Below, piece after piece: positions 9,481-62,729 of a stretch of 64,000 bases of DNA; the stretch's first letter is position 1, and every line of letters begins with the position of its first letter. The stretch spans positions 20,825 to 84,824 of the forward strand of contig CAYTCI010000007.1 in NCBI GenBank assembly GCA_964436305.1, read 5' to 3'. Position numbers and translations under genes: made by a program. Origin of the DNA: an uncultured Cytophagia bacterium. Its GTDB lineage: Bacteria; Zhuqueibacterota; Zhuqueibacteria; Residuimicrobiales; Residuimicrobiaceae. The notes beneath the pieces are model-generated. The model saw nothing but the letters and a program-made list of their open reading frames with translations. It did no database searches and was not told the origin of the DNA.

Positions 9481-10221
9481 TCAAATAGGGTTGGGAATAT
9501 CGACGAACTCCACCTCCACCTCCAGCTTGTGCATCAGGTGCTCGCCGAGGGCGCGAATGCCCAAACGCTCGGTCGCATAATGGCCGGCGGCGATATAATG
9601 AATCCCCGCCTCCTTGGCCATGTGCATGGTATTTTCCCGCACCTCGCCGGTGATATAGGCGTCGAGCCCCTCTGCGATCGCCAGCGCCAGTTCGTTCGGC
9701 GCCCCGCCGGAGCAGTAGCCGATGCGGTGGATCCTTTCCGGGCCAAAGGCAAAGGTGAAGGGTTCGCGATCAAAGGTATAGCGGATCAATTCGATGAGTT
9801 CGGGCAGATCCATCTCTTCAACAGAACCCATCAAGCCGATGCGTCCCAGGGGTGCCAGATTATGCAGCCCCAGCGTCTTGACCGCCAGGATGTTATTGCC
9901 CACCTCCTCATGCATATCGAGGCAGAGGTGATAGGCGAGCAGGTTGAGATCGTGCTCCAGCAAATACTTGAGGCGCTGGCGGAAGGGTCCCTCCACCACC
10001 CGGCTCTCCCGGTCCCAGAGCAGGCCATGGTGGACCATAACCAGATCGGCATCCTTTTGCACTGCCGCCGTAAAAAGCTCGAGGCTGGCCGAGACGCCGG
10101 TGACGATGCGCCCGATCTGCCTGCGGCCCTCGACCTGCAACCCCATGGGCCCGGAATCGGGTATCAGCCGCACGCCCAGATAATCGTCGAGATAACTGAT
10201 CAATTCTTCGCGAAGGATCAT
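9481..10221 (-). CDS. Nif3/YbgI dinuclear metal-centre protein
   Basis: GLQVEG, VHHGLLW, AYHLCLD, ITGE, GHYATE. Confidence 0.92.
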   Translation of the reverse strand: MILREELISYLDDYLGVRLIPDSGPMGLQVEGRRQIGRIVTGVSASLELFTAAVQKDADLVMVHHGLLWDRESRVVEGPFRQRLKYLLEHDLNLLAYHLCLDMHEEVGNNILAVKTLGLHNLAPLGRIGLMGSVEEMDLPELIELIRYTFDREPFTFAFGPERIHRIGYCSGGAPNELALAIAEGLDAYITGEVRENTMHMAKEAGIHYIAAGHYATERLGIRALGEHLMHKLEVEVEFVDIPNPI

Positions 10222-10343
10222 ACGAACCTCTGCAGATTACACCCCTGACTTGTCTCTACTAATATAGGGTGCTGGAAATGAAACGCAAGTAAAATCATCA
10301 CGATCCGGGGAGCGTCGGGCCTCGGCCCTTGCCTAAAAAGCAT

Positions 10344-10372
10344 TTGGCATTATGGCCATTTTGTCCTATATT
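10344..10372 (+). promoter_or_regulatory. sigma70-type promoter TTGGCA-N17-TATATT
   Basis: Motif match; a divergent promoter-like element lies near 10261-10289. Confidence 0.5.
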
Positions 10373-10449
10373 GGGAACAATGCAAGCTCACTGCGGTGGC
10401 CCTCCTGGCGGAGCAGCCGCCGATTACAGCAGATCCCGGAACCCCTGGC

Positions 10450-11253
10450 ATGCCCGTCCCGAAGCAGCAACTCAGGGCGCTGCACCGTCTGCGGCTGAAG
10501 AAATTCCGCGAGCAGGAGCAGGCCTTTCTGATCGAAGGTGTCCGGCTCTGTGAAGAGGCCCTCCGGGCGCAAGCCCTCCTGGTGCGCCTCTTTCACACGG
10601 CGGAGGCAGCACACAATCCGCGCATCAAGGCCCTGCTGAACGAGAGCGCCGGGCGCGGGGTTCCGATTGAAGAGCTGGACGGCGCCGCCTTTTCCCAGCT
10701 GGCCGATACCGAAACGCCACAAGGTATCGCAGCCCTCCTGCACAAGCCATTACGCCGCACCTTCGATCCCGCTGCCTGCAGGGATGCGTTGGTGCTGGCC
10801 ATCGACGGACTCGCCGATCCGGGCAATCTGGGCACCATCTTGCGTACGGCAGAATGGTTCGGTGTCCGCACGATCCTGCTCAGTCGCGATACAGTCGAAC
10901 TGTACAATCCCAAGGTGGTCCGCAGCAGCATGGGCAGCCTCTTCCGGCTGCAGGTGCATGAGGGGATCGATCTGCAGCAGACGGCCCTCGCCGCCCGGAC
11001 TGCGGGCTGGCGGTTACTCAGCGCCGAGGCGGCGGGCGGCGATCCGGCCCATGAATTCACTCCCGGTGGACGCGACCTGCTCTTCATCGGCAGCGAGGCC
11101 CATGGCCTGGTCACCCCCTTGCAGGAGACGATCGATCGGCGGATCACCATCCCCGGTGGCGGCGCGGAATCGCTCAACGCGGCCATTGCCGCCGCCATTT
11201 TACTCTACCAACTGACCACTCTTCCATTGCGGACGAATGCCCATGCACGTTGA
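10450..11253 (+). CDS. TrmH/SpoU-family RNA methyltransferase
   Basis: FLIEG.RL, DPGNLGTILRTA, PKVVRSSMGS, IGSEAHG, ESLNAAIAA. Confidence 0.92.
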   Translation: MPVPKQQLRALHRLRLKKFREQEQAFLIEGVRLCEEALRAQALLVRLFHTAEAAHNPRIKALLNESAGRGVPIEELDGAAFSQLADTETPQGIAALLHKPLRRTFDPAACRDALVLAIDGLADPGNLGTILRTAEWFGVRTILLSRDTVELYNPKVVRSSMGSLFRLQVHEGIDLQQTALAARTAGWRLLSAEAAGGDPAHEFTPGGRDLLFIGSEAHGLVTPLQETIDRRITIPGGGAESLNAAIAAAILLYQLTTLPLRTNAHAR

Positions 11254-12067
11254 TGACGACTTTTCCTATCTCGATGGTAAAGAGCTTTCCCGGGTGCTGC
11301 TTTGGACGCTGGCCATGTTCATCTTCAGCCTCTTCGCCGGCTCGCTGCTGATCTTTCTGGCCGGTCCGAAATGGGGTTTGCTGGCCGAAACCCTCTTCAT
11401 CGTCCCGGCCCTGGTCTACGTCCTGAAACACAAACGGCCTTTCGCGCGGACATTCCGCCTCAATCCGGTCCGCTGGCCCGTCCTCTTTTACACCCTGTTG
11501 CTGGCCTTTCCGGTCCTGATCCTCGGCGATGAACTGGACCGCATCATCGCCCTCTTCTTCCCTCTCCCTTCCTGGTTTGATGTCGGCGATCTGCTGGCGA
11601 TTCATTCCCTGACCGACGCCATGCTGATCCTTGGCAACGGGGTTATCGTTGCCGCGATCGCCGAGGAAATGCTTTTTCGCGGCCTGATCCAGCGCTCCCT
11701 GGAGCATCTCAACGATGCTGCCACCGCGATGGCGCTTTCGGCCATTCTCTTCGCTATGTTCCATTTCAATATCTGGTGGATGATCCAGATCACCTTGCTC
11801 GGGCTGGTGCTGGCCTACATCGCCTGGAAAAGCGGCAGTATCTGGCCGGCGGTTCTGCTGCATGGCATCAACAACCTGCTCTCGATTCTGGTGGCCAACG
11901 CCGGGCAGGTCAAGATGGACTGGTACGCCGGCGAGGTCCATGTCAAGGGGGTCTGGATTGCCGCCGCTCTCATCCTCCTGGTCCCGGCCCTGGCCGGATT
12001 TCACAAGGCATGCGAAGCCGCCACGGCCCGCCTGCATGAGCGCATGATTGGAGAAGACCATGAATAA
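11237..12067 (+). CDS. CPBP/Abi (CAAX-like) intramembrane glutamic metalloprotease
   Basis: Multi-TM; EEMLFRG, FAMFH, HGINN. Confidence 0.9.
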   Translation: MPMHVDDDFSYLDGKELSRVLLWTLAMFIFSLFAGSLLIFLAGPKWGLLAETLFIVPALVYVLKHKRPFARTFRLNPVRWPVLFYTLLLAFPVLILGDELDRIIALFFPLPSWFDVGDLLAIHSLTDAMLILGNGVIVAAIAEEMLFRGLIQRSLEHLNDAATAMALSAILFAMFHFNIWWMIQITLLGLVLAYIAWKSGSIWPAVLLHGINNLLSILVANAGQVKMDWYAGEVHVKGVWIAAALILLVPALAGFHKACEAATARLHERMIGEDHE

Positions 12068-13592
12068 CCGTGCACCCCAGGTTCGCATCGGCATGATCCA
12101 GTCCGCCGAGACCATCCGTTTCCAGTGCGAGAGCGCCTTCGATCTTCTCGACCTGCAAGGCAACCGGATGGCCCATGGCAAGGCCAATTCCCCCTGCGAG
12201 GCGGTCATTCGTCAGGCCGAGGCGGCCGAAATACGCTATCATGTTCGGCTGGCGATCGCCATCACCGAGGAGGAGGCGGAGAAGCGGCGCAAAAAACTCA
12301 AGGCACGGGATATCGCCACCTCCCTGTGGCGGCCGGGCATCGTGCTGGCCTTGCATGATTACACCATGGACAACCGCGAATACTGGGTCGTGACCGAGGC
12401 CTTTGCCGATGAAGCTGCGGCCAAACAATTCGCCCTGAGCTTCGAGCCGGTGGGTGAAGCCGTTGTCGTCAAGGAGATCATCCGCAAGCCCTCCGGTACG
12501 CTCGTGCTGATGCACCAGCCCTTTGCCGATGGTTGCCGCATCGCCCCTTGCGATCCAGAGGCCCGCATCCAGCTCTTCGATGTCACCGTCGGCATCGAGT
12601 TCCATTGGCAGCACCAGCGCACCCAGCTGTTGCCCGGAATTCTCGAGATCGCCTTCAACAATGCCGGGCGGCTGCTGGCGGTCAATGAACTGGACATCGA
12701 GACCTACCTCATCAGCGTCAACTCCTCGGAGATGACCCGGGAGAATCCGGTCGAGCTGCTCAAGGCCCAGACCATCGCCGCGCGCAGCACCATTCTCGCC
12801 ACCATGGGCAAACACCACTATGACGAAAAGTTCCATCTCTGCTCCGACGATCACTGCCAGTGCTATCATGGTGTGGCCAACATCTCCGAGTACTCGCAGG
12901 CCGCGGCGGTCGAAACCGAGGGGGTCAATCTGCTGCATGCGGGCCGGGTCTGCGATGCGCGCTATGCCAAGATCTGCGGTGGGATCATGGAGGATTACGC
13001 CCACATCTGGGATGAACGCGAGGTCCCCTATCTGGTGCCGGGCGTGGATGGCAAGGAAAAACTGGGCTTCCCGCTGGCCAGCGAGGAGCAAACCAAAGCC
13101 TATATCGACAGCTCGCCCGATGTCTGGTGCAACACCCAAAAATATGCGATTCCCTCTTCGCTGCCCTACAACACCCGGGATCTCTTCCGCTGGAAGGTCT
13201 CTTATCCGCGCCAGGCGTTGGGTGAGCTGATCAGCCGGCGGCTGGGCATTCAATTTGGCGAGCTGATCGATCTCATCCCCGGGGAGCGCGCGCCCGGTGG
13301 CCGCCTGATTTTCATGGATGTCGTCGGCAGCGAGCGTACTGTCCGGATCGGCAAGGAGCTGGTCATCCGCCGCGCCCTCTCCGAGAGTCATCTCTACAGC
13401 GCCTGTTTCTATATTGAGCGCGAGCGGGACGCCGCCGGCCAGGTGGTGCAGTTCCATCTGATCGGCGCCGGCTGGGGGCATGGCGTCGGGCTGTGCCAGG
13501 TGGGCGCGACCGTCATGGCGCAGCAGGGGTTCGATCATGCGGCCATTCTGGCGCACTATTACAAGCAGAGCCAGTTGGCAAAACTCTACTAA
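12048..13592 (+). CDS. SpoIID/LytB lytic-transglycosylase-domain protein
   Basis: YLISVNSSEM, ELLKAQTIAARS, CQCYHG, GAGWGHGVGLCQVGA, ILAHYY. Confidence 0.9.
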   Translation: MEKTMNNRAPQVRIGMIQSAETIRFQCESAFDLLDLQGNRMAHGKANSPCEAVIRQAEAAEIRYHVRLAIAITEEEAEKRRKKLKARDIATSLWRPGIVLALHDYTMDNREYWVVTEAFADEAAAKQFALSFEPVGEAVVVKEIIRKPSGTLVLMHQPFADGCRIAPCDPEARIQLFDVTVGIEFHWQHQRTQLLPGILEIAFNNAGRLLAVNELDIETYLISVNSSEMTRENPVELLKAQTIAARSTILATMGKHHYDEKFHLCSDDHCQCYHGVANISEYSQAAAVETEGVNLLHAGRVCDARYAKICGGIMEDYAHIWDEREVPYLVPGVDGKEKLGFPLASEEQTKAYIDSSPDVWCNTQKYAIPSSLPYNTRDLFRWKVSYPRQALGELISRRLGIQFGELIDLIPGERAPGGRLIFMDVVGSERTVRIGKELVIRRALSESHLYSACFYIERERDAAGQVVQFHLIGAGWGHGVGLCQVGATVMAQQGFDHAAILAHYYKQSQLAKLY

Positions 13593-15799: not shown

Positions 15800-16936
15800 A
15801 TGATCATCTCGAAGATTGAAGTTCGCGCGTTCAAGTCGATTTACGAGCTCGCTCTGCCCCTGGATCCGCATATCAATGTGCTCATCGGCGCCAACGAGAG
15901 CGGCAAATCCAACATCCTCAAGGCCCTCGAAGCCTTCCGCGAAAAGGTGGCGCTCGATGCCTCGTTCACCTGCCAGTACTCGAATCACTACTACATGGCC
16001 AAACCTCCCGAACTGACCCTGGAGTTTTCCGGTTTCACCAACGAAAACCGGCGCCTGCTGCAGCTGGTCTCCGAGTCGTTCAAGGAGGTGGAGCGTTTCA
16101 AGATCCGCAAGGAGGGGCCAACCCTCAACGACTACCATCTGCTGATCAACGGCAATCCGGCCGAGGCGGTCGACATGGCCCGGCTGCTGCGCATCCTCCC
16201 CAAGATCCTCTATTTTCCCGATATCCGTCTGCTCAAAAACCGCGTCGACTATGACGATCTCATCGCCAACCTGCCGGATTGCGCCACCGAACGCAACCTG
16301 CTCAAGATCGGCGGGGTCGATCGCTATGAAACCATCTTCGAGGACAACGCCCGCGGCCGTCGCGCCCTCGAGGAGGCCAGCCGGATCATCACCGAACAGC
16401 TGCGCCGCGTCTGGTCGCAGGAACCGACCATTGAAGTCAAACTCAATGTCAACGGCCGCGCCCTCTATATCGATTTCAGTGACAGCACCACCGTCTTCGA
16501 CACCCCGGAGTCCCGCAGCCTCGGATTCCGCTGGTATCTCTCCTTTTATGTCAATTTTCTCGCCCAAACCTTCGAGGCCCAGGCCAACGAGTATCTCTTT
16601 CTCTTCGATGAACCCGGCATTCACCTGCACCCCTCCGGCCAGAAGGATCTGATGAAGGTCCTCGAGGACCTGGCGCTTAAAAACCAGGTGGTTTTCAGCA
16701 CCCATTCGCCCTTCATGATCAATCGCCAGTTTCCCGAGCGCGTCATTCTGGTGGTCAAGGACAAGAACGGCACCCGCATTGACAACCAGGCCTACCGCGA
16801 ACACTGGAAACCCCTGCGTGACGAGATCGGCCTCAAGGTGGGCGACCTCTTTTTCTTCAGCGATTCCAGCATCATCGTCGAGCTGCCGACGCGCAAGTCC
16901 GGGATCCTGGAAAAATTCAAGTCCAAACCTGAATAG
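15800..16936 (+). CDS. OLD/AAA_15-type ABC ATPase lacking the TOPRIM nuclease domain
   Basis: F(K)SI strand, Walker A GANESGKS, signature-like SLGFRWYLSF, Walker B FDEPGIHLHP, H-loop STHSPFMI; ends at IIVELPT with no EGxxD. Confidence 0.75.
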   Translation: MIISKIEVRAFKSIYELALPLDPHINVLIGANESGKSNILKALEAFREKVALDASFTCQYSNHYYMAKPPELTLEFSGFTNENRRLLQLVSESFKEVERFKIRKEGPTLNDYHLLINGNPAEAVDMARLLRILPKILYFPDIRLLKNRVDYDDLIANLPDCATERNLLKIGGVDRYETIFEDNARGRRALEEASRIITEQLRRVWSQEPTIEVKLNVNGRALYIDFSDSTTVFDTPESRSLGFRWYLSFYVNFLAQTFEAQANEYLFLFDEPGIHLHPSGQKDLMKVLEDLALKNQVVFSTHSPFMINRQFPERVILVVKDKNGTRIDNQAYREHWKPLRDEIGLKVGDLFFFSDSSIIVELPTRKSGILEKFKSKPE

Positions 16937-33176: not shown

Positions 33177-34223
33177 TCAAGATTTGATTCCGTCCTCCTC
33201 TTCATCCTCTTTCCCGGGTCCGGCGCTCTCCGCATCGGGCGCCGGCGGCCGGCGAGGCATGAGGTGGGGCGCTACCCAGGGTGTCTCCTCGTAAACCGGG
33301 TCCTCCTCTGCGGGCCAGCCAGCCTCCACCACAGGCCGCGTACCCTCCCATTCCGCCAGCTTGCGGCGGTTGCGGCGACGGATGATCAAAAAGACCAGCA
33401 GAAAAAGAAGGGGCAGAGCCAGCCAGATCAGCTCATCCACTTCACTCAACCAGAGCCACTTCTGGGTCCGCTCCAGATAGCCGCGCCATTCCCGTTCAAA
33501 ACCTGCGACTGTACTGCCGGTGGCGCGCAAAAAAAGGCGATCGGGATCCTCCCCGGCCGCGATCCCTGAGAGCAGGGTGCGCAGCGCCTCGGCATCATAG
33601 GTGGCCAGCAGGTAGCGGACGGCGGAGTAACTCTCCTGATAGGCAAGCTGGGCACGGTTCGGGTCGAATTGCAGCACCGCATCGATCTCCTGCAGGGGGA
33701 TCAGCGAGCCGGTGGCCAGGGCCCGCGAAAGCAGGCTTTTGTTCTCGTACTCGGCATGCTCGGCATAAAAGATCGCCATCCCCTCATCGATCCAGCGGGG
33801 CAGGGTGCGGTTGCCGATCCGCTGATGCAGCAAGAGATGCAGCAGTTCGTGGACCAGACTCTGCCGCAGAGAAGCCTCCGGACGATCCCAGCGCGGCGAA
33901 CGGACGACCATGGTGGCGGCCGCAGGAATGGCGAACGCCTGCGCCCACTCGGGCAGCTCGCCGTGAAGATAGTCCCGGAACCACGCCCGGCTGGGCGCAA
34001 TCAGAACATGCAGGGTCTCCTGCTGCGCCAGGGCCAGATCGTGCTGGATCTCTTCACTCGCCTGCCGCAGAACTGTTAGGCTCTCCTCCACAAAGCGTGC
34101 ATCCTCGGCGCTGGCATAGAGGCAGATCCGCTCCCGACAATGGCGGATCAGGGGCGAGGAGGGCGTCTGCGCACCGGCCATCGTCAACAGCAAAAGGACA
34201 AAGAAAAGCCCGCGTGATCGCAT
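33177..34223 (-). CDS. Peptidase MA-like (gluzincin) metallohydrolase, membrane-anchored
   Basis: Signal peptide, HELLH, WIDEGMA, AYQES, C-terminal TM and acidic tail. Confidence 0.8.
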   Translation of the reverse strand: MRSRGLFFVLLLLTMAGAQTPSSPLIRHCRERICLYASAEDARFVEESLTVLRQASEEIQHDLALAQQETLHVLIAPSRAWFRDYLHGELPEWAQAFAIPAAATMVVRSPRWDRPEASLRQSLVHELLHLLLHQRIGNRTLPRWIDEGMAIFYAEHAEYENKSLLSRALATGSLIPLQEIDAVLQFDPNRAQLAYQESYSAVRYLLATYDAEALRTLLSGIAAGEDPDRLFLRATGSTVAGFEREWRGYLERTQKWLWLSEVDELIWLALPLLFLLVFLIIRRRNRRKLAEWEGTRPVVEAGWPAEEDPVYEETPWVAPHLMPRRPPAPDAESAGPGKEDEEEDGIKS

Positions 34224-34591
34224 CAACGGCCCTCCGGCGGCTGTAAAAAGGAGCGGCAAACCGCCGCCATCGCCAGGATCTGGCGGACCGCCGTTTCCCG
34301 CAGGCACTGCGGCTGTCTGGCCAGACAGGCTTCCATCCGGCACTGCCGGTTATGGTCCGGACAGCTGCTGGCGGCATGCGCCTCAGCCAGGGTGCGCAGT
34401 TCTGTGAGCATCTCCTCCTGCGCAAAGCGCTTCGCCTGCACCCGGAGGCCAAACTCGATCGTCTTTTCCTGGACAAAACGATGGGCCTCGAGAAGTTCCG
34501 CCGGCGAGATCAGCCCGAGCAGCTCCTGCAGTCCCTCTCCCGAAAGGAGCGATCGAATCAGATCGAGTTTCCGGTTTATCCGCAGTGCCAT
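34223..34591 (-). CDS. Small hypothetical protein with Cys cluster
   Basis: ATG 34591 with GGAGGG upstream; C-x6-C-x4-C-x6-C; its stop abuts the peptidase ATG. Confidence 0.6.
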   Translation of the reverse strand: MALRINRKLDLIRSLLSGEGLQELLGLISPAELLEAHRFVQEKTIEFGLRVQAKRFAQEEMLTELRTLAEAHAASSCPDHNRQCRMEACLARQPQCLRETAVRQILAMAAVCRSFLQPPEGR

Positions 34592-34607: not shown

Positions 34608-35111
34608 TCACTCCACTCTCTCGAGCAGCAGGTCGAGCAGGGCAAGAACCACCCGGCGAATCGTGGCTGGCTTGTGACTCTGGAAGAAGAGAAAGCGGGC
34701 GGAGGGAGAGAGGAGGGTGTAGGGTTTGAGGGCACCTTCCACAACCGGCAGCGCCTGCTGGCCGAGGTCGGCAGCGATGACAAGGGGAGCGGCAAAAGCG
34801 GCGGTCGTGTCGTCCACCAGATCGCGGCAGGCGGTGTAGGAGGCTTCATCAAACCAGTCAAAATGGGCGATACAGCCGAGCATCCTGGTGCCGACCAGGT
34901 CCCAGGCAAAGGATTGCCGATAGCCGATGCCGTAGCAATAGAGCACCAGTTCGCGATGGATGGTGAGCGAGCCCAGCAGCAGATCCTCACGCCCCAAGCG
35001 GAGATCGGGGCAGAAGGCCTGGAGAAAGGTGCGGCTGCCCGCTCCGCCAGGGCCAAGAACAATGATCTCGGCCGCGCGCTGAATTGCGCCTTCGTCCTCT
35101 GTTCGCTGCAT
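34608..35111 (-). CDS. Degenerate MglA/CvnD-like small GTPase fold (pseudo-GTPase)
   Basis: IIVLGPGGAGSRTF (P-loop Lys lost), LLGSLTI..LVLYCYG, SFAWDLVG..MLG.I..D, PLVIAAD. Confidence 0.65.
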   Translation of the reverse strand: MQRTEDEGAIQRAAEIIVLGPGGAGSRTFLQAFCPDLRLGREDLLLGSLTIHRELVLYCYGIGYRQSFAWDLVGTRMLGCIAHFDWFDEASYTACRDLVDDTTAAFAAPLVIAADLGQQALPVVEGALKPYTLLSPSARFLFFQSHKPATIRRVVLALLDLLLERVE

Positions 35112-35275
35112 AGGGGGCCTTCAAAACGCCGTTTCGCCGCTGCGCCCCCCGCAGAAGGATCAGGGCCGGAGCGCGGTCAGCTTTTGCCTGATGAGTAAAA
35201 GATCCGCCCGCTGCAGAACGATCTGGTGCGGCCCCGGCGCCGGAGCCGCATCCTGTACGGCCGCTGCATCAGGAG

Positions 35276-36361
35276 TCAGTTGAGGTTTTTTTTTTGGCTG
35301 CCGTTGCGGGTGAAAAAGGATGCAATACGCGAGAACGAGTCGGCACTCCCCTGCTGCGCCGCTGCCAGCTTGAGCGAGATATCGCGGGCGATCAGGTCGG
35401 TATCAGATGCCGTTCCGGGCGTAAGGAGGATGCGATGATCGGCCATCAGGCCCTGGATGATCTCGAGGGTCTGCAGAGCATCGGTCGGCATGGCCGCCAG
35501 CAGCAATCGCAGGGGCTGCGGCTTTTCCAGCAGGCTCCAGATCCGCGCTTCGGCTTCATCGGACTCCGGGGCAGCCACCCCTTCCGCGCGGGCCACATAA
35601 CGATCCAGCGACGCCAGCTGGGCCGCCTGATTTTTAAATTCCTGCAGACGCTGCGATCCGGCCTGCAGCAGCTCCTGGTTGGATCGGGTGATTCGCAGCT
35701 CGCGCTCGACCGGCTGCATGGTCAGGTCAAAATAGCCCTGGAGCCAGATCATCATGTTCAGCAGCGCTTCCTCGGGTGGATACTCCTTGAGCACCGCATC
35801 CACGACCACCCCTTTGTCGACGAAGACCAGTCCCTCTTCCGGCTCCTGTACCAGGTGAACCATCGCCGATTTTTTGCCGAGTTCGAGGGTCTGGATCAGG
35901 TCGATCAGCGACATCTCCTCCAGGCTGCCGGTGAATCCCTGGGTCAAGGAGGTCTCGCCGTTCAGGGCTGCGGCGCTCTCCTGCAAGATCGTCTCCACCC
36001 GGGCGACGACCTCTTCAGGAGCGTAGGGTTTGGCAATGAGATCGTCGATCTCGAGCGCCAGCAGCTTGAGCCGCTCCTCCAGCTCCATCTGCCGGGTGGT
36101 GAAGATAAAGGGCGTCTCCTTGAGCGTCGGATGGCTGCGCACCTGCTGGTAAAGGGCCAGGCCGTCAATCCCCTCCTGTTCCACTTCGCTGAGGATCAGC
36201 ATGGGGTGGTCGGTGACCGCGCGCTCCAGGGCCGTGCTGCTCTCCGGCAGGATCAGGCTCTCAAGATGATGATCGCGCAAGGCGCCGGCAAGGGCGGCCG
36301 TCGTCGCGCCATCGCCATCGACAATGAGGATCAGGGGATTGTGGTTGCGAGTCTCGGTCAT
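35276..36361 (-). CDS. Pseudo-receiver + DUF4388/PATAN protein
   Basis: ILIVDGD, LILSEVE (phospho-Asp->Glu), IAKP; GFTGSLEEMSLIDLIQTLELGKKS, G..VDA, EEALL.M..W..G.F. Possible -1-frame extension to 35160. Confidence 0.8.
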   Translation of the reverse strand: MTETRNHNPLILIVDGDGATTAALAGALRDHHLESLILPESSTALERAVTDHPMLILSEVEQEGIDGLALYQQVRSHPTLKETPFIFTTRQMELEERLKLLALEIDDLIAKPYAPEEVVARVETILQESAAALNGETSLTQGFTGSLEEMSLIDLIQTLELGKKSAMVHLVQEPEEGLVFVDKGVVVDAVLKEYPPEEALLNMMIWLQGYFDLTMQPVERELRITRSNQELLQAGSQRLQEFKNQAAQLASLDRYVARAEGVAAPESDEAEARIWSLLEKPQPLRLLLAAMPTDALQTLEIIQGLMADHRILLTPGTASDTDLIARDISLKLAAAQQGSADSFSRIASFFTRNGSQKKNLN

Positions 36362-36369
36362 CGGGCGGT

Positions 36370-38541
36370 CTATTTCATCGTCGTGGGATGCAGGGTTTCA
36401 GCCGGCCGCCCCGGACGGGATTGGGGACGGTAAAAGGTTGCAAAAAGACGGAAGATGATCCGGCGCGAATTGACCGTGGAGAGATCGCTTACCAGCAGCA
36501 GTCCATCGCGCTCGCGCAATCCCAGCCGCTGCCGGATGACCCGTTCCTCCAGCGGCTTTTGCAGAAATTCATTATAGGCAAAGACCACGACCAGGGGTAG
36601 CGCCGCCTTGGCGCGCAGCACCTGCTGCAGATAACGCTGATATCCCCAATCCACCTGGCGGCCATCGATGAGGATGACAAAACCCAGCAGTGAGCCGGCG
36701 AAAAAATCGATGACCGGGGCAAATTCGCGCGCCAGCGACAGAGCGACAAGATTGAGGAGATGTCCGCCGCGGAATTCGGCGGTGCCGAGGAGCAGATCTG
36801 AATCCTGCGGCTGAAAAGCGCTCTTCTCCTGGATCTGCTCGGCTGAAAGGCTGGCAACCATCTGCCGGCATAATTCACGGTTGTTGCCGAGCACCAGGAT
36901 CGCACCATGCGCGCTGCGGAAGCGCTGCTGCAATCGCAGAGTGCGCTCCAGTTCGCGCACCTCGGAGCGTTCTGCGGTTTCCTCGTGCGGGGCGGGCGCA
37001 AAGGGCGGCATCCGCTCCTCTTTCAGGACGGCCGGAGGCGCCTGGGAGCCGGTGTCGACGATGATGCCGCCAAAGGCCTCCTCCGGCGCGGGACCCTCCG
37101 CCAGCTCATCCTCCATCTCGAGCTGGAGCAGGGCATCGGCTGCATGCTGTGGAATGACGTGTCCGAGATCGCTGAAAACCAGCCCGCCATCCTCACCCTT
37201 GGGGCTGCCGAAAAGATCCTGCTCCGCGGCATCGGCATGGCGCAGGTCATAAAAAAGGTCCTGCTCAAAGCTGCTGTCAGCGTCCCAGCGCGGCGGCTCC
37301 TGGGCCGGCAGCGGTGTCGGTTCTTCAACCGGCGGCAGGGGAGGCGCTGCGGCCGGCACCTCCGGTAAGGCGGCCGGCGGGAGTGGCTCCGGCTGCTCGA
37401 AGGCCGGCGGGTTAACCGCGGCGGCCTCGGCGCCGATCTCCTCGTGCAGCAAGTCCTCTGCGCTGGCGGCACCAAGCGCCCGTTCGACATGCTCAAGGGT
37501 ATCCGGGGCGGAGTCATAGCGGCCGGCACTCCCGGCTGCTTCTGCACCGCTCTCCACCGCCCCGGCCTCCGGCGTCGTACCGCCGGGGCTGAAATCCCGC
37601 AAAACGTGCAAAAATCCCAGCTCGTACAGCTTTAGAATCCGTTGCAGCGTGGTGATCTCGTCATATTTGCTTTCATCAATGATCCGTCCGAGCGAGTGAA
37701 TGCCGTCAAACAGGGAGACGAAGTATTCCAGATCCGATGCAAGAGCCTTGCGGGCGATGATTTTTTTAAAATTCTGCGTGGTCACCAACACGGTTTCAAG
37801 CGCCGGCAGATGTCGCAGAATCTCCTCGCGTTGTTCCATTCTCTTGGCTCCTTGCAGTAACAAGCCCATGTTGCTGACCCCGATTTCACTCGTGCCGGTC
37901 ACGGGAGCGAACACCATGGTGAATCGGCCCTTGTCCCAGGCGAGCATCTTGAAAACCGCCTCTTCACTGCGCTGGAGGCCGACCGAAGCCTGGGTGACCG
38001 CACCCTGATTGAAGAGGATTCGCCCGGAAACCCCATTCTCGTTGTAAATCGAGAGGACGCCGCTCTTCCGTTCCGCCCCAAAGACCTCGATCAGTTCGCT
38101 GACGCTGAGGTCGGCCAGCCGGCCGCCGAACTGGTTGCGGCTGCGTTTGCGCGCCTGCCGGTTGCGTTCGCGCCGCCGGAGGACCATCTGCACCCGGCCG
38201 ACGATCTCGCGCACATGAATCGGCTTGACAATGTAATCCTTCGCCCCCAGTTTGAAGCTCTTGACGCGGTTCCAGACATCGCTTTTCTGGGTGAGAAAGA
38301 TAACCGCACAATGGCGGTTGAGGGAGGACTGCTGGACCTGGTCCAGGAGGGCATAGCCGTCAATGCCTGGTGCCGCCACCTCTGCCAGGATGGCATCGAA
38401 CGCATGCCCGGAGAGTTTCTCCAGCGCTTCGCCATTGTTCGCAGCGGCATCCACCTCGAAATGTAAATCGAGGAAGTTGTTACGCAGGATGCGGACATTC
38501 TTGGGATCGGGATCGATGAGCAGTATGCTGAGCGGATTCAT
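36370..38541 (-). CDS. Pseudo-receiver + DUF4388/PATAN + acidic linker + pseudo-GTPase fusion
   Basis: ILLIDPD, AILAEV, DYIVKP; FGGRLADLSVSELIE, G.I.F..G.V..A, W.KG.F; C-terminal FFAGSLLGFVILID and IRQRLGL match the MglA-like GTPase fold. Confidence 0.8.
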   Translation of the reverse strand: MNPLSILLIDPDPKNVRILRNNFLDLHFEVDAAANNGEALEKLSGHAFDAILAEVAAPGIDGYALLDQVQQSSLNRHCAVIFLTQKSDVWNRVKSFKLGAKDYIVKPIHVREIVGRVQMVLRRRERNRQARKRSRNQFGGRLADLSVSELIEVFGAERKSGVLSIYNENGVSGRILFNQGAVTQASVGLQRSEEAVFKMLAWDKGRFTMVFAPVTGTSEIGVSNMGLLLQGAKRMEQREEILRHLPALETVLVTTQNFKKIIARKALASDLEYFVSLFDGIHSLGRIIDESKYDEITTLQRILKLYELGFLHVLRDFSPGGTTPEAGAVESGAEAAGSAGRYDSAPDTLEHVERALGAASAEDLLHEEIGAEAAAVNPPAFEQPEPLPPAALPEVPAAAPPLPPVEEPTPLPAQEPPRWDADSSFEQDLFYDLRHADAAEQDLFGSPKGEDGGLVFSDLGHVIPQHAADALLQLEMEDELAEGPAPEEAFGGIIVDTGSQAPPAVLKEERMPPFAPAPHEETAERSEVRELERTLRLQQRFRSAHGAILVLGNNRELCRQMVASLSAEQIQEKSAFQPQDSDLLLGTAEFRGGHLLNLVALSLAREFAPVIDFFAGSLLGFVILIDGRQVDWGYQRYLQQVLRAKAALPLVVVFAYNEFLQKPLEERVIRQRLGLRERDGLLLVSDLSTVNSRRIIFRLFATFYRPQSRPGRPAETLHPTTMK

Positions 38542-38592: not shown

Positions 38593-38621
38593 AATTTATC
38601 TAAAAATATGCCCTATGTCAA
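38593..38621 (-). promoter_or_regulatory. sigma70 promoter TTGACA-N17-TAAATT
   Basis: Perfect -35 upstream of the Rec-DUF4388 operon. Confidence 0.7.
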
Positions 38622-38632
38622 GGTTTTTCTAT

Positions 38633-38660
38633 AAAAAAGAAAGCCGGGAAAATCCCGGCT
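38633..38660 (-). terminator. Rho-independent terminator after the ZAS gene
   Basis: Minus strand AGCCGGGA-ttt-TCCCGGCT followed by TTCTTTTTT. Confidence 0.8.
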
Positions 38661-38699
38661 CTCCAGCCACCCCTGGTCTGTTTGCTTGTCAAATACCCT

Positions 38700-60315: not shown

Positions 60316-60338
60316 ACTTGAGAACGAGAGGATCTGGT

Positions 60339-62729
60339 ATGGCTGACTTTGAAAAGCTGGGGATGTTTTATCTGGGCAAGGAGTACGATCCAGAAAAACG
60401 GGCCCTTCTCGATAGCCTGGTGATGTACGACTCCAAGGATCTGGTCACCCATGGGGTCTGTATCGGCATGACCGGCAGCGGCAAGACCGGCCTCTGCATC
60501 TCCCTGCTGGAGGAGGCGGCGATCGACAACATCCCCGCTCTCATCATCGATCCCAAGGGGGACATGACCAACCTGCTGCTCACCTTCCCCGGGCTGCTGC
60601 CGGCCGAATTTGCCCCATGGATCAACGAGGACGATGCCCGCCGCGAGAACAAGACCCCCGAGGCCTTTGCCGCGGCGCAGGCAGAGCTCTGGAAGAACGG
60701 GCTCGCCCAGTGGGGCGAAGACGGAGCGCGGATTCAGCGCCTGCGCGATGCCGCCCGCTTCACCATCTTCACGCCGGGCAGCTCGGCCGGTACCCCCATC
60801 TCCATCCTCAGCAGCTTCGCCCGCCCGGCGGAGGATCTCCTGCTCGATTCCGAGGCCACCGGCGACCTGATCTCCTCGACCGTCACCAGCCTGCTCGGCC
60901 TCATCGGTATCACCGCTGATCCGGTCAAGAGCCGCGAGCATATCCTTCTTTCCAACATCTTCAACCAGGCCTGGCAGAATGGCAAGGATCTGGACCTGGC
61001 CACCCTGATCACCGCCATCCAGAATCCTCCCTTCGAACGCGTCGGTGCCTTTGCCGTCGACACCTTTTATCCTGCCAAGGAGCGCTTCGAGCTGGCCCTG
61101 GCCCTCAATAACCTGCTGGCGGCCCCGGGCTTCTCCACCTGGATGGAGGGCGAGCCCATGGACATCGGCCGCCTGCTCTACGCCGAGGACGGCAAGCCGC
61201 GCCACTCGATCTTTTACATCGCCCATCTCAGCGATTCGGAGCGGATGTTTTTCGTCACGCTGCTCTTCAACCAGATGGTCTCGTGGATGCGCAGCCAGCC
61301 CGGCACCACCAGCCTGCGCGCCATCCTCTATATGGACGAGGTCGCCGGCTACCTGCCCCCCGTGGCGGCGCCGCCCTCCAAAAAACCGCTGATGGTCATG
61401 CTCAAGCAGGCCCGCGCCTTTGGCGTCGGGGTGATGCTGGCGACCCAGAACCCGGTCGATCTCGATTACAAGGCCCTCTCCAACACCGGGACCTGGTTCA
61501 TCGGCCGGCTGCAGACCCAGCAGGATATCGAAAAGGTGATCGAGGGCCTGCGCAGCGGCGCCGGCGACCTCGATCCCCGGGTAAGCAAAGCCCTCGCCGC
61601 CCTCGGCAAACGGGTTTTTCTCATGAAGAACATCCATGAGAGCGAGCCCGTGATCTTTCAGTCGCGATGGGCGCTCTCCTATCTGCGCGGCCCCCTGACC
61701 CTGGCCCAGATCAAAAAGCTGGCCGCGCCTGCCGGCAGCACCCCGCGCGCGGCGGCAGCCCCCGCCAGGGCGGCCTTTGCCAGCGATGCGGAAATACGGC
61801 CCGCACTGCCGCCGCAGATCGTCGAGTACTTCGCCCCCCTGCGCGGAAGTCTCAAGTCCGACGCCCGGCTGATCTACCGCCCGGGCGTACTCGGCCTGGC
61901 GGACGTGAATTTCGCCCCGGGGCAGTCCCAGCGCCTCGGCCGGATCGCCTGGATCGACGAGGGACCGGTGCCGGTGGACTGGGAGAAGGCGGTCGAAACC
62001 CCCTTTTCCGAAAACGACCTGGAAAAAACGCCCGAGGAGAAGGCCGAATTCACCCGCCTGGCCTCCCCGGCCGCCAAACCCGAAAACTATACCCTCTGGA
62101 GCAAAAATCTGGCGGACACCCTCTACCGCACCGCCAAGGTCGATCTCTTCACCAGCACCTCGCTCAAGCTGACTTCCCAGCCGGGGGAGTCGGAGCGCGA
62201 TTTCCGCATCCGCATCAGCCAGCTCGCCCGCGAGCGGCGCGATGAAGCGGTCGACCAATTGCGCAAACGCTATGAGAGCAAAATGGCCACCATCCAGGAC
62301 CGCGTCATGCGGGCTGAACAAAAAGTCGAAAAAGAGAAGAGCGATTACCGCGCCCAGACCATGTCCACCGCCGTCTCGGTCGGGGCGACCATCCTCGGCG
62401 CCTTCTTCGGCCGTAAAAGCCTCTCCGCCTCGACCCTGAGCCGGGCCGGCAGCGCCATGCGCAGCGGCATGCGCACCGCCAAGGAACACGGCGATATCTC
62501 CAATGCTGAAGAATCCCTGGATGTCCTCAAGCAGCGACTTGATGAATTGCAGCAGGAACTCAACCTGGAGATCGCCCGGATCGAGGAACAAACCGATCCG
62601 ATGGCGCAGCCCCTGGAGGCTACCGCGCTGCGGCCGAAAAAGGGCGATATCACGGTCCGGCTCACCGCTCTGGTTTGGCTGCCCTACTGGCAGAGCAGCG
62701 ATGGCAAGCGGGAGCCCTGCTACCTCTAG
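60339..62729 (+). CDS. HerA/FtsK-superfamily ATPase (DUF853/DUF87-like) with coiled-coil C-terminus
   Basis: HGVCIGMTGSGKT, IIDPKGD, YMDEV, QARAFGVG..LATQNP.D. Confidence 0.85.
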   Translation: MADFEKLGMFYLGKEYDPEKRALLDSLVMYDSKDLVTHGVCIGMTGSGKTGLCISLLEEAAIDNIPALIIDPKGDMTNLLLTFPGLLPAEFAPWINEDDARRENKTPEAFAAAQAELWKNGLAQWGEDGARIQRLRDAARFTIFTPGSSAGTPISILSSFARPAEDLLLDSEATGDLISSTVTSLLGLIGITADPVKSREHILLSNIFNQAWQNGKDLDLATLITAIQNPPFERVGAFAVDTFYPAKERFELALALNNLLAAPGFSTWMEGEPMDIGRLLYAEDGKPRHSIFYIAHLSDSERMFFVTLLFNQMVSWMRSQPGTTSLRAILYMDEVAGYLPPVAAPPSKKPLMVMLKQARAFGVGVMLATQNPVDLDYKALSNTGTWFIGRLQTQQDIEKVIEGLRSGAGDLDPRVSKALAALGKRVFLMKNIHESEPVIFQSRWALSYLRGPLTLAQIKKLAAPAGSTPRAAAAPARAAFASDAEIRPALPPQIVEYFAPLRGSLKSDARLIYRPGVLGLADVNFAPGQSQRLGRIAWIDEGPVPVDWEKAVETPFSENDLEKTPEEKAEFTRLASPAAKPENYTLWSKNLADTLYRTAKVDLFTSTSLKLTSQPGESERDFRIRISQLARERRDEAVDQLRKRYESKMATIQDRVMRAEQKVEKEKSDYRAQTMSTAVSVGATILGAFFGRKSLSASTLSRAGSAMRSGMRTAKEHGDISNAEESLDVLKQRLDELQQELNLEIARIEEQTDPMAQPLEATALRPKKGDITVRLTALVWLPYWQSSDGKREPCYL

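What the first reader, a model, noticed from the sequence alone, without database searches (positions are those of the whole stretch)
34608..38541. Candidate new polarity/signalling module: two PATAN proteins plus two P-loop-dead MglA-like pseudo-GTPases
Seen: operon with its own TTGACA-N17-TAAATT promoter encoding [REC-DUF4388-acidic/Pro linker-GTPase fold], [REC-DUF4388] and a free GTPase fold. Both folds align by eye with MglA/CvnD-like GTPases (DFG.I...L.L.GTPGQ.RF.F.W..L..G.LG.I.L.D) but lack catalytic motifs: P-loop GPGGAGSRT and GNNRELCRQ, no DTPGQ, no NKxD. Established: MglA/RomR-type and PatA/PATAN proteins organise cell polarity, motility or patterning. Inference: a nucleotide-independent scaffold version that I do not recognise as described.
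Basis: partly seen in the sequence, partly recalled or inferred. Interest (0 to 1): 0.78.

Follow-up and report, generated by a model that had tools for sequence, protein, structure and literature searches.

The report
PATAN regulators with dead GTPase partners
A conserved operon of uncultured KSB1-like bacteria encodes two PatA-type response-regulator proteins and two Ras/MglA-like GTPase folds that have lost their phosphorylation and GTP-binding residues. A module that normally acts as a molecular switch therefore seems to have become a fixed scaffold, whose cellular job is still unknown.

Summary

**Genes on the minus strand**
- A (36370-38541): REC, PATAN, a Pro/acidic linker and a G-like domain.
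- B (35276-36361): REC and PATAN.
- C (34608-35111): a free G-like domain.

**Fold and homology**
- A profile of C retrieves canonical GTPGQ/NKxD small GTPases at E 1e-10 to 1e-4 over 1.84 billion proteins.
- hhalign of the C family against these gives 99.9% probability, E 8e-33.
- The AlphaFold model of C has pLDDT 89.5, and its Foldseek matches are only Rab/Ras/Rheb.
- The C-terminal domain of A matches the same family at 98.4%.

**Lost catalytic residues**
- Motifs G1 to G4 are absent from both domains in the window.
- G3 and G4 are absent in every relative aligned. One distant orthologue of A still has GxxxxGKT.
- Both REC domains carry Glu in place of the phospho-acceptor Asp.

**Conservation**
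- The order A-B-C recurs wherever the contig reaches far enough: ten distinct gene neighbourhoods plus 12 further metagenome contigs.
- dN/dS is 0.05-0.3.
- No MglB or pilus gene lies nearby.

**Verdict:** a degenerate derivative of the known PATAN plus MglA-type GTPase association, probably a constitutive scaffold. The function is inferred. I rate it a new variant of a known kind, of moderate interest.

The parts
38638..38664 (-). Terminator-like hairpin (12-bp stem, then TTTTTTAT) ending the upstream 214-aa gene's transcript
   Evidence: The hairpin is conserved in L001, L004, L013 and L022.
38593..38621 (-). Sigma-70-type promoter of the operon: TTGACA-N17-TAAATT
   Evidence: CTTGAC and TA[AC][AG]TT are conserved with the same spacing in six lineages, including L022 (KSB1) and L017.
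36370..38541 (-). Gene A, 723 aa: REC, PATAN, Pro/acidic disordered linker, degenerate G domain
   Evidence: dN/dS is 0.12-0.14.
38191..38526 (-). A: receiver domain (residues 6-117). Glu54 (codon 38380-38382) replaces the phospho-acceptor Asp; Thr and Lys are kept
   Evidence: Pfam E 4e-20. Alignment to PleD D53 and CheY D57.
37828..38124 (-). A: PATAN / DUF4388 core (residues 140-238)
   Evidence: Pfam PF14332, E 3e-15.
36922..37584 (-). A: Pro/Glu/Ala-rich linker of variable length (about residues 320-540), holding the conserved short motif DLFYDLRHA (37234-37260)
   Evidence: Sequence. Linker dN/dS is 0.19-0.22 against 0.05-0.16 for the domains. The linker is absent from the 516-576-aa orthologues.
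36406..36921 (-). A: C-terminal small-GTPase-like domain (about residues 541-712). The P-loop position reads GNNRELCRQ (36862-36888), G3 reads LVALSLAREF and G4 reads VVFAYNE
   Evidence: hhalign against canonical GTPases 98.4%, E 5.7e-15; against the C family 98.4%, E 9.8e-15. Also.
35276..36361 (-). Gene B, 361 aa: REC (Glu59, codon 36185-36187, at the acceptor site) plus PATAN. It is a paralogue of the N-terminal half of A and ends in the basic tail SRIASFFTRNGSQKKNLN
   Evidence: Pfam. BLASTP of A against B gives 30% identity over 237 aa, E 8e-26. Acceptor residue.
35200..35216 (-). Conserved block CTGCAGCGGGCGGATCT inside the 164-nt spacer between B and C; role unknown
   Evidence: No convincing conserved RNA structure.
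34608..35111 (-). Gene C, 167 aa: stand-alone pseudo-GTPase. G1 reads GPGGAGSRT (35028-35054), the G2 threonine segment is deleted, G3 reads YGIGYRQ and G4 reads AADLGQ
   Evidence: AlphaFold pLDDT 89.5. The 50 Foldseek matches listed are all Ras-superfamily GTPases.
34223..34591 (-). Gene D, 122 aa: helical-looking N-terminal part plus an invariant C-x6-C-x4-C-x6-C motif (34304-34363).
   Evidence: Called in relatives. Alignment with 4 invariant Cys. No Pfam or PDB relative. dN/dS 0.25-0.30.
33177..34223 (-). Peptidase_MA_2 gene (signal peptide, C-terminal transmembrane helix, acidic tail). Its start overlaps the D stop (TGATG), so it is possibly co-transcribed. It is an accessory neighbour, not part of the core
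   Evidence: It lies next to or near the cassette in 4 of 10 neighbourhood types.

Best explanation
The locus is a conserved operon, A-B-C(-D), descended from the known pairing of PatA-type (PATAN) response regulators with MglA-type small GTPases.

**What is shown**
- A is REC-PATAN-linker-G.
- B plus C encode the same three modules as two separate proteins, so the operon holds one fused and one split copy of the same architecture.
- In the window's lineage both switch inputs are gone. Both receivers carry Glu instead of the phospho-acceptor Asp. Both G domains lack the P-loop Lys/Ser-Thr, the switch-I Thr, the DxxG/TPGQ motif and NKxD.

**Most likely mechanism (inferred)**
- The proteins no longer cycle through phosphorylation or GTP hydrolysis.
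- They form a constitutive, pseudo-symmetric hetero-oligomer. A pairs with B through the paralogous REC-PATAN halves. The G-like domain of A pairs with C, as G domains commonly dimerise.
- The Glu receivers are locked in an active-like conformation.
- This scaffold recruits or positions a partner through the PATAN domains and the conserved short motifs in A's disordered linker.
- Where present, the Cys4 protein D is an accessory subunit.
- The target is unknown. The only recurrent candidate is the membrane-anchored MA-clan peptidase and envelope genes next door.
For: **Architecture:** Pfam; A and B are paralogues.

**G fold and homology**
- A profile of C finds 117 proteins at E<=1e-3 in 1.84 billion. 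The weaker hits carry GxxxxGK[ST], GTPGQ and NKxD and match ATP_bind_1, Arf and Ras.
- hhalign: 99.9%, E 8e-33 for C; 98.4%, E 5.7e-15 for the A C-terminal domain.
- AlphaFold pLDDT 89.5, pTM 0.85.
- All 50 Foldseek matches listed are Rab, Ras, Rheb or Rho: probability 1.0, TM 0.52-0.67.

**Motif loss**
- 0 of 53 C representatives have a Walker A. The P-loop Lys is kept in 16 of 53.
- G3 and G4 are never canonical in either domain in any locus aligned.

**Pseudo-receivers**
- Glu at the CheY D57 position in A and B of the window and of most lineages, with Thr and Lys retained.
- Glu is the commonest replacement in pseudo-receivers and can act as a phosphomimetic (PMC12632262).

**Functional constraint**
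- dN/dS 0.05-0.30 for every gene and domain.
- A-B-C order is kept in 10 gene neighbourhoods with different flanks. It is also kept in 12 further metagenome loci wherever the contig reaches far enough.

**Known biology of the parent kinds**
- PATAN regulators bind the type IV pilus motor (bioRxiv 10.1101/2021.06.11.447907).
- MglA/MglB genes are found near PATAN genes (PMC4316618).
Against: - No binding, complex formation or localisation was tested. AlphaFold-multimer was not available.
- The glycine-rich GPGGAGSR loop of C could still hold a phosphate.
- Some orthologues keep GxxxxGK(T/N/G), so part of the family may bind nucleotide.
- L010 and L019 A proteins keep a canonical DD-D-T/S-K receiver. 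The ancestral module was therefore probably a real switch, and some present-day versions may still be.
- No pilus, gliding, MglB or division gene is linked in any locus examined, so the polarity or positioning output rests only on what PATAN and MglA do elsewhere.
- All carriers are uncultured.
Confidence: 0.55

Rival explanations
1. The G-like domains are still nucleotide-regulated. They bind GTP or ATP non-canonically, as some pseudoGTPases bind without hydrolysing, and the module remains a ligand-driven switch.
For: - L020 A keeps GTAESGKT. L019 and L010 keep GxxxxGK(G/N). 16 of 53 C representatives keep the P-loop Lys. The window's C keeps GPGGAG.
- A weak profile match of C to Walker-A segments in PDB: designed P-loop protein at E 0.08, ABC ATPases at E about 1.
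Against: - In the window, A has no Gly, Lys or Thr at the P-loop (GNNRELCRQ).
- C has Ser-Arg in place of Lys-Thr.
- The switch-I Thr segment is deleted in C.
- G3 and G4 are absent in every member aligned.
Confidence: 0.2
2. The switch input has moved to protein D. Its four invariant cysteines hold a metal or Fe-S centre that senses redox state or metal, and this controls assembly of the A-B-C scaffold.
For: - The C-x6-C-x4-C-x6-C motif is invariant from the window to relatives whose D protein is 22% identical.
- D immediately follows C in 6 of 10 neighbourhood types.
- D is under purifying selection, dN/dS 0.25-0.30.
- The cassette retains no other candidate sensor.
Against: - D is absent from L015, L020, L021 and all 12 loci of the MRIGEIAV subgroup, which still keep A-B-C.
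- A Cys4 site may simply be a structural zinc site.
- D has no homology to any known sensor.
Confidence: 0.1
3. The genes are decaying remnants (local pseudogenisation) of an ordinary REC-PATAN plus MglA-type GTPase operon, with no present function.
For: - Loss of every catalytic motif.
- One metagenome contig (L006) has A and D broken into pieces.
Against: - The reading frames are intact in the window and in nearly all relatives.
- dN/dS is 0.05-0.30.
- 56 clusters at 50% identity reach E<=1e-10.
- Gene order is invariant in every locus where it could be seen.
- The promoter is conserved.
Confidence: 0.02
4. The cassette is an anti-phage defence or mobile accessory system.
For: Remote canonical relatives of C occur fused to TIR and STAND NTPase domains. 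The only PADLOC hit is PD-T4-6, and it covers the REC domain alone.
Against: - No PADLOC family matches C, D or the G domain.
- The cassette sits in stable chromosomal synteny with lipid A/LPS, Sua5, trigger factor, ClpXP and Lon genes.
- GC content shows no anomaly.
- No mobility genes are adjacent.
Confidence: 0.02

Closest known systems
MglA-family small GTPases of the GTPGQ type (groups 2-5 of Wuichet & Sogaard-Andersen 2015, including conservon CvnD/MfpB-like proteins; Pfam ATP_bind_1/Arf/Ras hits)
   Same: - Homologous G domain of about 160-175 aa, found by HMM and profile-profile comparison.
- Same predicted fold.
- Shared core motifs outside the catalytic sites: F-G-R/x, hydrophobic beta3, W-D/E-L, LG-x-I-x-L-x-D, P-x-V-V-A-A.
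- Some MglA genes lie near PATAN genes (PMC4316618).
   Different: - No GxxxxGK[ST], no switch-I Thr, no GTPGQ and no [NT]KxD.
- No Roadblock/MglB partner in any locus with gene calls.
- One copy is fused to a REC-PATAN protein.
PatA-type / PATAN-domain response regulators (Anabaena PatA; Synechocystis PixG and TaxP-type regulators that bind the pilus motor PilB1; M. xanthus SgnC)
   Same: PATAN (PF14332) combined with a receiver domain. They are encoded in small signalling operons.
   Different: - The domain order is REC then PATAN. From my own knowledge of the family and its name, PatA has PATAN at the N-terminus and REC at the C-terminus.
- The acceptor Asp is replaced by Glu.
- A carries a long disordered linker and a G-like domain.
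- No che-type kinase or pilus genes are nearby.
RomR (M. xanthus polarity factor: REC, Pro-rich linker, acidic C-terminus; partner of MglA)
   Same: A receiver followed by a long Pro/acidic low-complexity linker, in a protein that works with a small-GTPase fold. This is an analogy of architecture drawn from my own knowledge and the abstracts found.
   Different: RomR has no PATAN and no G domain. With RomX it is a GEF for a catalytically active MglA. No sequence relationship was tested here.
Eukaryotic class-I pseudoGTPases (p190RhoGAP pG1/pG2, CENP-M, AAGAB psGD)
   Same: A G-domain fold with lost nucleotide-binding motifs, used as a protein-protein interaction module (PMC12490416). A tandem pair of pseudo-G domains recalls p190RhoGAP pG1 and pG2 (my own knowledge).
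   Different: Independent origin. These are bacterial, derived from the MglA/CvnD branch, and lack of nucleotide binding has not been shown experimentally.
Glu-type pseudo-receivers / aspartate-less receivers (plant PRRs, fungal Rim15p and many bacterial examples)
   Same: Glu at the acceptor position with Thr and Lys retained. A constitutively active-like state is the usual hypothesis (PMC12632262, PMC4395418).
   Different: Here two such receivers are paired in one operon, and each is joined to PATAN.

Membership tests
Ras-superfamily / MglA-family small GTPase | G-domain fold (six-stranded beta sheet with flanking helices) | tested here: met
   For C: AlphaFold pLDDT 89.5, with the order b1-a1-b2-b3-a2-b4-a3-b5-(short)-b6-a5, and all 50 Foldseek matches listed are small GTPases. 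For the A C-terminal domain the evidence is homology only: hhalign 98.4%.
Ras-superfamily / MglA-family small GTPase | G1 P-loop GxxxxGK[ST] | tested here: not met
   C has GPGGAGSR and A has GNNRELCR. 0 of 53 C-family representatives have the motif. Among A orthologues only L020 has GTAESGKT.
Ras-superfamily / MglA-family small GTPase | G2 switch-I Thr and G3 DxxG (TVPGQ/GTPGQ in the MglA family, PMC4316618) | tested here: not met
   The Thr-bearing segment is deleted in the C family (alignment). G3 columns: the Pro present in 20 of 22 canonical sequences and the Gly in 18 of 22 are not among the common residues in 53 pseudo members. The same holds in every A and C domain aligned.
Ras-superfamily / MglA-family small GTPase | G4 [NT]KxD guanine specificity motif | tested here: not met
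   C has A-A-D-L-G-Q and A has F-A-Y-N-E. The Lys column is Val or Leu in 37 of 53.
Ras-superfamily / MglA-family small GTPase | GTP binding and hydrolysis | not testable with these tools
   This needs biochemistry.
MglA/MglB module | Cognate Roadblock/LC7 (MglB) gene within a few genes of the GTPase (390 of 449 MglA are coupled, PMC4316618) | tested here: not met
   No Robl_LC7 hit in the Pfam lists of the flanking genes in any locus with gene calls. D has no Pfam hit at E<=10.
PATAN-domain (PatA-type) response regulator | PATAN domain (PF14332) together with a receiver domain | tested here: met
   Both domains score above Pfam gathering thresholds in A and B and in all orthologues.
PATAN-domain (PatA-type) response regulator | Phosphorylatable receiver (acceptor Asp with an acidic pair, Thr/Ser and Lys) | tested here: not met
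   Glu54 in A and Glu59 in B. The acidic pair is reduced to D-P and D-G. Thr and Lys are kept.
PseudoGTPase (G fold that cannot bind and/or hydrolyse GTP) | G-domain fold plus loss of the residues required for nucleotide binding or catalysis | tested here: met
   Fold. Motif loss. Actual absence of binding was not tested.
Aspartate-less receiver / pseudo-receiver | REC fold recognised by profile but lacking the acceptor Asp | tested here: met
Known anti-phage defence systems (PADLOC) | Match of the signature proteins to a PADLOC model | tested here: not met
   Only REC-level hits for A and B; nothing for C or D.

The most novel reading that the evidence does not exclude
The cassette is a new type of bacterial spatial or signalling switch. 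Both classical inputs of its ancestors, Asp phosphorylation and the GTP cycle, have been discarded. The fused and split REC-PATAN-pseudoG units form a fixed heteromeric scaffold whose assembly is governed instead by the Cys4 protein D (a redox or metal input) or by the neighbouring membrane-anchored MA-clan peptidase. It would be the first bacterial signalling module built entirely from paired pseudoenzymes.
Probability: 0.12. Interest if true: 0.75.

Novelty: new variant of a known kind. Interest (0 to 1): 0.5.

Why it matters
- **A bacterial pseudoGTPase family.** PseudoGTPases are well documented in eukaryotes but barely in bacteria. Here there is a whole bacterial family: at least 56 clusters at 50% identity, with no Pfam or NCBIfam model, and labelled 'hypothetical protein' wherever a source names it, apart from one ABC-ATPase label.
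- **Clear origin and fixed partners.** The family is clearly derived from the MglA/CvnD branch. It is always encoded with two PATAN response regulators, and one of these carries a second pseudo-G domain.
- **A natural series of decay.** The relatives run from a canonical receiver plus a GxxxxGK P-loop, through Glu-receivers with a Walker A, to complete loss. This gives a system for asking how a phosphorylation- and GTP-driven polarity switch turns into a constitutive scaffold, and which surfaces of MglA-type G domains and PATAN domains matter apart from catalysis.
- **Annotation value.** It also provides two new domain families for annotating KSB1-like and related uncultured genomes.

Tried and rejected
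- **Direct sequence searches of C and the A C-terminal domain.** Pfam, NCBIfam and PDB gave nothing. BLASTP of C against A was non-significant.
- **Word-indexed homologue searches.** They found only 4 and 3 close relatives, which wrongly suggested a tiny family. The exhaustive HMMER search corrected this.
- **First AlphaFold run.** With a 4-sequence alignment it was useless, pLDDT 38.9.
- **hhalign of the two shallow alignments.** It gave only 36% probability. Adding distant orthologues raised the A-domain match to 98.4%.
- **Protein D.** No Pfam, PDB or Roadblock relationship. The only hits were chance matches to Cys-rich LDL-receptor repeats.
- **The upstream 394-aa protein.** No Pfam or PDB relative. 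My guess that it is a sigma-like factor is unsupported.
- **Rfam on the whole window.** No match.
- **The B-C spacer.** RNAalifold found no convincing structure, and the spacer does not fit sigma-54 or sigma-70 consensus.
- **A sigma-54 promoter for the cassette itself.** None was found. The genome-wide pattern count is at chance. The one conserved site belongs to the upstream operon.
- **PADLOC.** No defence-system membership.
- **Taxonomy.** Source names give only 'bacterium', 'candidate division KSB1 bacterium', 'Bacteroidetes bacterium' and 'bacterium BMS3Abin05'. The window's phylum is therefore only inferred from shared synteny with the KSB1 contig.

Full report
**1. What is at the coordinates**

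The minus strand carries three tightly packed ORFs: A (36370-38541, 723 aa), B (35276-36361, 361 aa) and C (34608-35111, 167 aa).

- Pfam finds a receiver plus DUF4388/PATAN in A (residues 6-117 and 140-238) and in B (11-123 and 144-241), all above gathering scores.
- Nothing in Pfam, NCBIfam or PDB matches C or the last 190 residues of A.
- The quoted strings are present: GPGGAGSRT at C 20-28 and GNNRELCRQ at A 552-560.

The promoter TTGACA-N17-TAAATT lies at 38621-38593, in the 158-nt gap after the upstream gene. Such a match is not rare by chance: 2 were found against 1.3 expected. However, CTTGAC and TA[AC][AG]TT at the same spacing are conserved in six lineages, down to relatives whose C proteins are about 35-40% identical. 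A conserved hairpin with a T-run precedes it. The claim that the operon has its own promoter is therefore well supported.

**2. A fourth gene was missed**

Gene calls in related contigs show a 122-139-aa gene directly after C.

- In the window it is D, 34223-34591 (MALRINRK...).
- Its TGA overlaps the ATG of a Peptidase_MA_2 gene (33177-34223). That protein has a signal peptide, a C-terminal transmembrane helix and an acidic tail.
- D has four invariant cysteines in the pattern C-x6-C-x4-C-x6-C, down to 22% identity.
- D has no Pfam or PDB relative.

**3. Are the two extra domains GTPase folds?**

Word-indexed searches found only 4 and 3 close relatives. A first AlphaFold run on 4 sequences failed, with pLDDT 38.9. 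An exhaustive HMMER search with the profile of C against 1.84 billion representatives changed the picture.

- It returned 117 proteins at E<=1e-3 and 56 at E<=1e-10.
- The top 60 or so are 160-170-aa proteins, and none has a Walker A.
- The weaker but still significant hits (E 4e-10 to 1e-4, whole-library E-values) carry GPFNAGKT, FGTPGQ and AANKQD. On their own they hit ATP_bind_1 (24 members), Arf (20) and Ras (14).

Further tests agree.

| Comparison | Result |
|---|---|
| C family (53 sequences) vs canonical set (22 sequences), hhalign | 99.9%, E 8e-33, 165 columns |
| AlphaFold model of C with the 53-sequence alignment | pLDDT 89.5, pTM 0.85, G-domain strand/helix order |
| Foldseek of that model against PDB | all 50 matches listed are Rab, Rheb, Ras or Rho; probability 1.0; TM 0.52-0.67 |
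| A C-terminal domain, shallow alignment, vs C family | 95.4% |
| A C-terminal domain, shallow alignment, vs canonical set | 79% |
| A C-terminal domain plus one distant orthologue, vs canonical set | 98.4%, E 5.7e-15 |
| A C-terminal domain plus one distant orthologue, vs C family | 98.4%, E 9.8e-15 |

The canonical HMM hits the A C-terminal domain of distant orthologues directly: L010 at E 4e-26 and L015 at E 9e-15. Pfam Arf weakly hits that of L020, at E 0.005.

**4. State of the catalytic motifs**

In a joint alignment, the canonical set has G 22/22, K 22/22 and S/T 22/22 in the P-loop. The C family differs at every site.

- The second Gly is kept in 8 of 53, Lys in 16 of 53 and Ser in 3 of 53.
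- The Pro and Gly of GTPGQ are lost.
- The Lys of NKxD is Val or Leu in 37 of 53.
- The Thr-bearing switch-I segment is deleted (alignment).

The P-loop position of the fused domain of A shows a gradient across lineages.

| Locus | P-loop position of the A G-domain |
|---|---|
| L020 | GTAESGKT (intact Walker A) |
| L019 | GTANSGKG |
| L010 | GVSASGKN |
| L015 | GASGSGRE |
| window | GNNRELCR |

G3 and G4 are non-canonical in every A and C domain aligned, including those of 12 further metagenome loci. The window's two domains are therefore the most degenerate end of a family that is non-canonical throughout.

**5. The receivers are pseudo-receivers too**

- Alignment to PleD (D53) and CheY (D57) puts Glu54 of A and Glu59 of B at the acceptor position.
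- Across 11 lineages, A has Glu in 9; only L010 and L019 have Asp. B has Glu in 8; L022 and L020 have Asp and L010 has Ala.
- Thr/Ser and Lys are mostly kept.
- Glu is the commonest substitution in pseudo-receivers and can mimic phosphorylation (PMC12632262).

**6. Conservation and selection**

The order A, B, C recurs in ten gene neighbourhoods with different flanks.

| Neighbourhood | Genes around the cassette |
|---|---|
| Window clade | lpxB/lpxK, NtrC-like, 394 aa, 214 aa, A-B-C-D, Peptidase_MA_2, LPS genes |
| L022 (KSB1 genome) | same layout as the window clade |
| L017 | different upstream genes; same downstream genes |
| L021 | NtrC-like upstream; no D |
| L015 | followed by PALP/CBS genes; no D |
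| L010 / L011 | SpoU, Rce1, SpoIID upstream |
| L019 | SpoU, Rce1, SpoIID upstream; trigger factor and ClpPX downstream |
| JGI contig carrying P0132 | trigger factor, ClpPX and Lon downstream |
| L020 | FGGY upstream; ABC transporter opposite |
| L006 | window-clade relative with A and D broken into pieces |

- In 12 further metagenome contigs, every contig that reaches far enough shows [PATAN...G-like][PATAN][pseudo-G].
- D is present in 6 of the 10 neighbourhood types and in none of the 12 extra loci.
- The peptidase lies next to or near the cassette in 4 of the 10.
- A and B are paralogues: 30% identity over the 237 residues of REC-PATAN, E 8e-26. B plus C is therefore a split counterpart of A.
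- Nei-Gojobori dN/dS against three relatives is 0.05-0.09 for A REC and A PATAN, 0.06-0.16 for the G domain of A, 0.19-0.22 for the linker, 0.09-0.16 for B, 0.17-0.22 for C and 0.25-0.30 for D.

These are functional genes, not decaying ones.

**7. Surroundings**

- In the window, only A and C match the canonical or pseudo-G HMMs.
- Pfam on the remaining genes shows helicase, SpoU/Rce1/SpoIID, glycosyltransferases, a histidine kinase, a TonB receptor, LPS genes, TPR, FakA/DegV, GlgC and others. There are no pilus, gliding, chemotaxis or Roadblock genes.
- The flanks of the loci with gene calls show none either.
- PADLOC gives only REC-level hits. Rfam gives nothing.
- Source names for family members are 'hypothetical protein', plus one mis-annotation as an ABC ATPase. 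The organisms are 'candidate division KSB1 bacterium', 'Bacteroidetes bacterium' (a MAG), 'bacterium BMS3Abin05' and 'bacterium'.

**8. Mechanism**

Shown:
- One fused and one split copy of REC-PATAN-G.
- Loss of the acceptor Asp and of G1 to G4 in the window.
- Strict co-inheritance of A, B and C.
- Purifying selection on all of them.

Established for the parent families:
- PATAN regulators bind the type IV pilus motor, and PATAN genes neighbour mglA/mglB homologues (bioRxiv 10.1101/2021.06.11.447907; PMC4316618).
- Eukaryotic pseudoGTPases act as interaction modules (PMC12490416).
- Glu receivers can be constitutively active-like (PMC12632262).

Inferred:
- A, B and C form a constitutive, pseudo-symmetric complex that scaffolds or positions a partner without a phosphorylation or GTP cycle.
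- The linker motifs of A and the PATAN domains are the likely docking sites.
- D is an optional subunit.

The output is unknown, and a role in polarity or envelope organisation is only a guess from ancestry and neighbours. The main rival is residual non-canonical nucleotide binding. It is supported by the P-loop remnants in some orthologues.

**9. Comparison and novelty**

By homology and fold the two domains belong to the MglA/CvnD (GTPGQ) branch of small GTPases. They fail every catalytic membership criterion and lack MglB, so they should be filed as pseudoGTPases derived from that branch, not as MglA. A and B are PATAN response regulators with reversed domain order and aspartate-less receivers.

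The PATAN-MglA/MglB genomic link is already known. The following appear undescribed: the conserved, doubly degenerate, fused-plus-split architecture, the two unnamed G-like families, and protein D. I found no paper describing them.

Verdict: a new variant of a known kind, and of moderate interest. All carriers are uncultured, but the proteins are small and tractable in vitro.

Noticed in passing
window 40704-40718 (-), between 40896-42296 and 39444-40712: A sigma-54-type promoter, TGGTAC-N5-TTGC, lies between the NtrC-like enhancer-binding protein gene and the 394/422-aa plus 214-aa (weak zf-HC2, anti-sigma-like) genes. The exact pattern TGGYAC-N5-TTGC is found at the same place in L001-L009 and L013. 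This upstream unit also accompanies the cassette in L022 and partly in L021.
   Followed up: partly
window 35200-35216 (-), in the 164-nt B-C spacer: The block CTGCAGCGGGCGGATCT is conserved from the window clade to L017. It has no convincing RNA structure and no promoter consensus. Lineages with a short B-C spacer lack it.
   Followed up: partly
window 10396-13592 (+): A SpoU methylase, Rce1-like and SpoIID gene trio is the immediate upstream neighbour of the cassette in L010, L011 and L019. In the window it lies 21 kb away on the other strand, which suggests a rearrangement between related lineages.
   Followed up: no
window 35279-35332 (-), C-terminus of B: A conserved basic, possibly amphipathic tail, SRIASFFTRNGSQKKNLN, is also present in L001, L004, L013 and L017 (SRLASFFRR...). 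It could be a membrane-targeting helix. This was not tested.
   Followed up: no
window 37234-37260 (-), linker of A: A short conserved motif, DLFY[DE]LR(H/T)A, and a second block (IPQHPADALL) sit inside an otherwise fast-evolving Pro/acidic linker. They are conserved in L001, L004, L013 and L017. They are candidate linear docking motifs.
   Followed up: no
L015 4112-6698; L021 7688-10224: In two cassettes that lack D, the genes after C are a PALP/CBS (cystathionine-beta-synthase-like) and a Cys_Met_Meta_PP enzyme. This cysteine-metabolism pair sits where the Cys4 protein otherwise sits.
   Followed up: no
L008 (DAOOPF010000047.1): The cassette genes give mirrored hits on both strands, for example 9857-10498 (+) and 10711-11352 (-). 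The contig is an inverted duplication, most likely an assembly artefact.
   Followed up: no
L006 4883-7041 and 8846-9202: Gene A and gene D are split into fragments on this metagenome contig. The cause is either sequencing frameshifts or a genuinely broken copy.
   Followed up: no
proteins P0074, P0075, P0077 (remote hits): Canonical relatives of the same GTPase branch occur fused to TIR plus HEAT repeats and to an nSTAND1 NTPase. These look like defence or signalling-type architectures unrelated to the cassette.
   Followed up: partly
window 60318-62729 (+) and 15800-16936 (+): An 803-aa protein has no Pfam hit at E<=1e-5, and there is an AAA_15/AAA_21 (AbiEii/OLD-like) ATPase.
   Followed up: no
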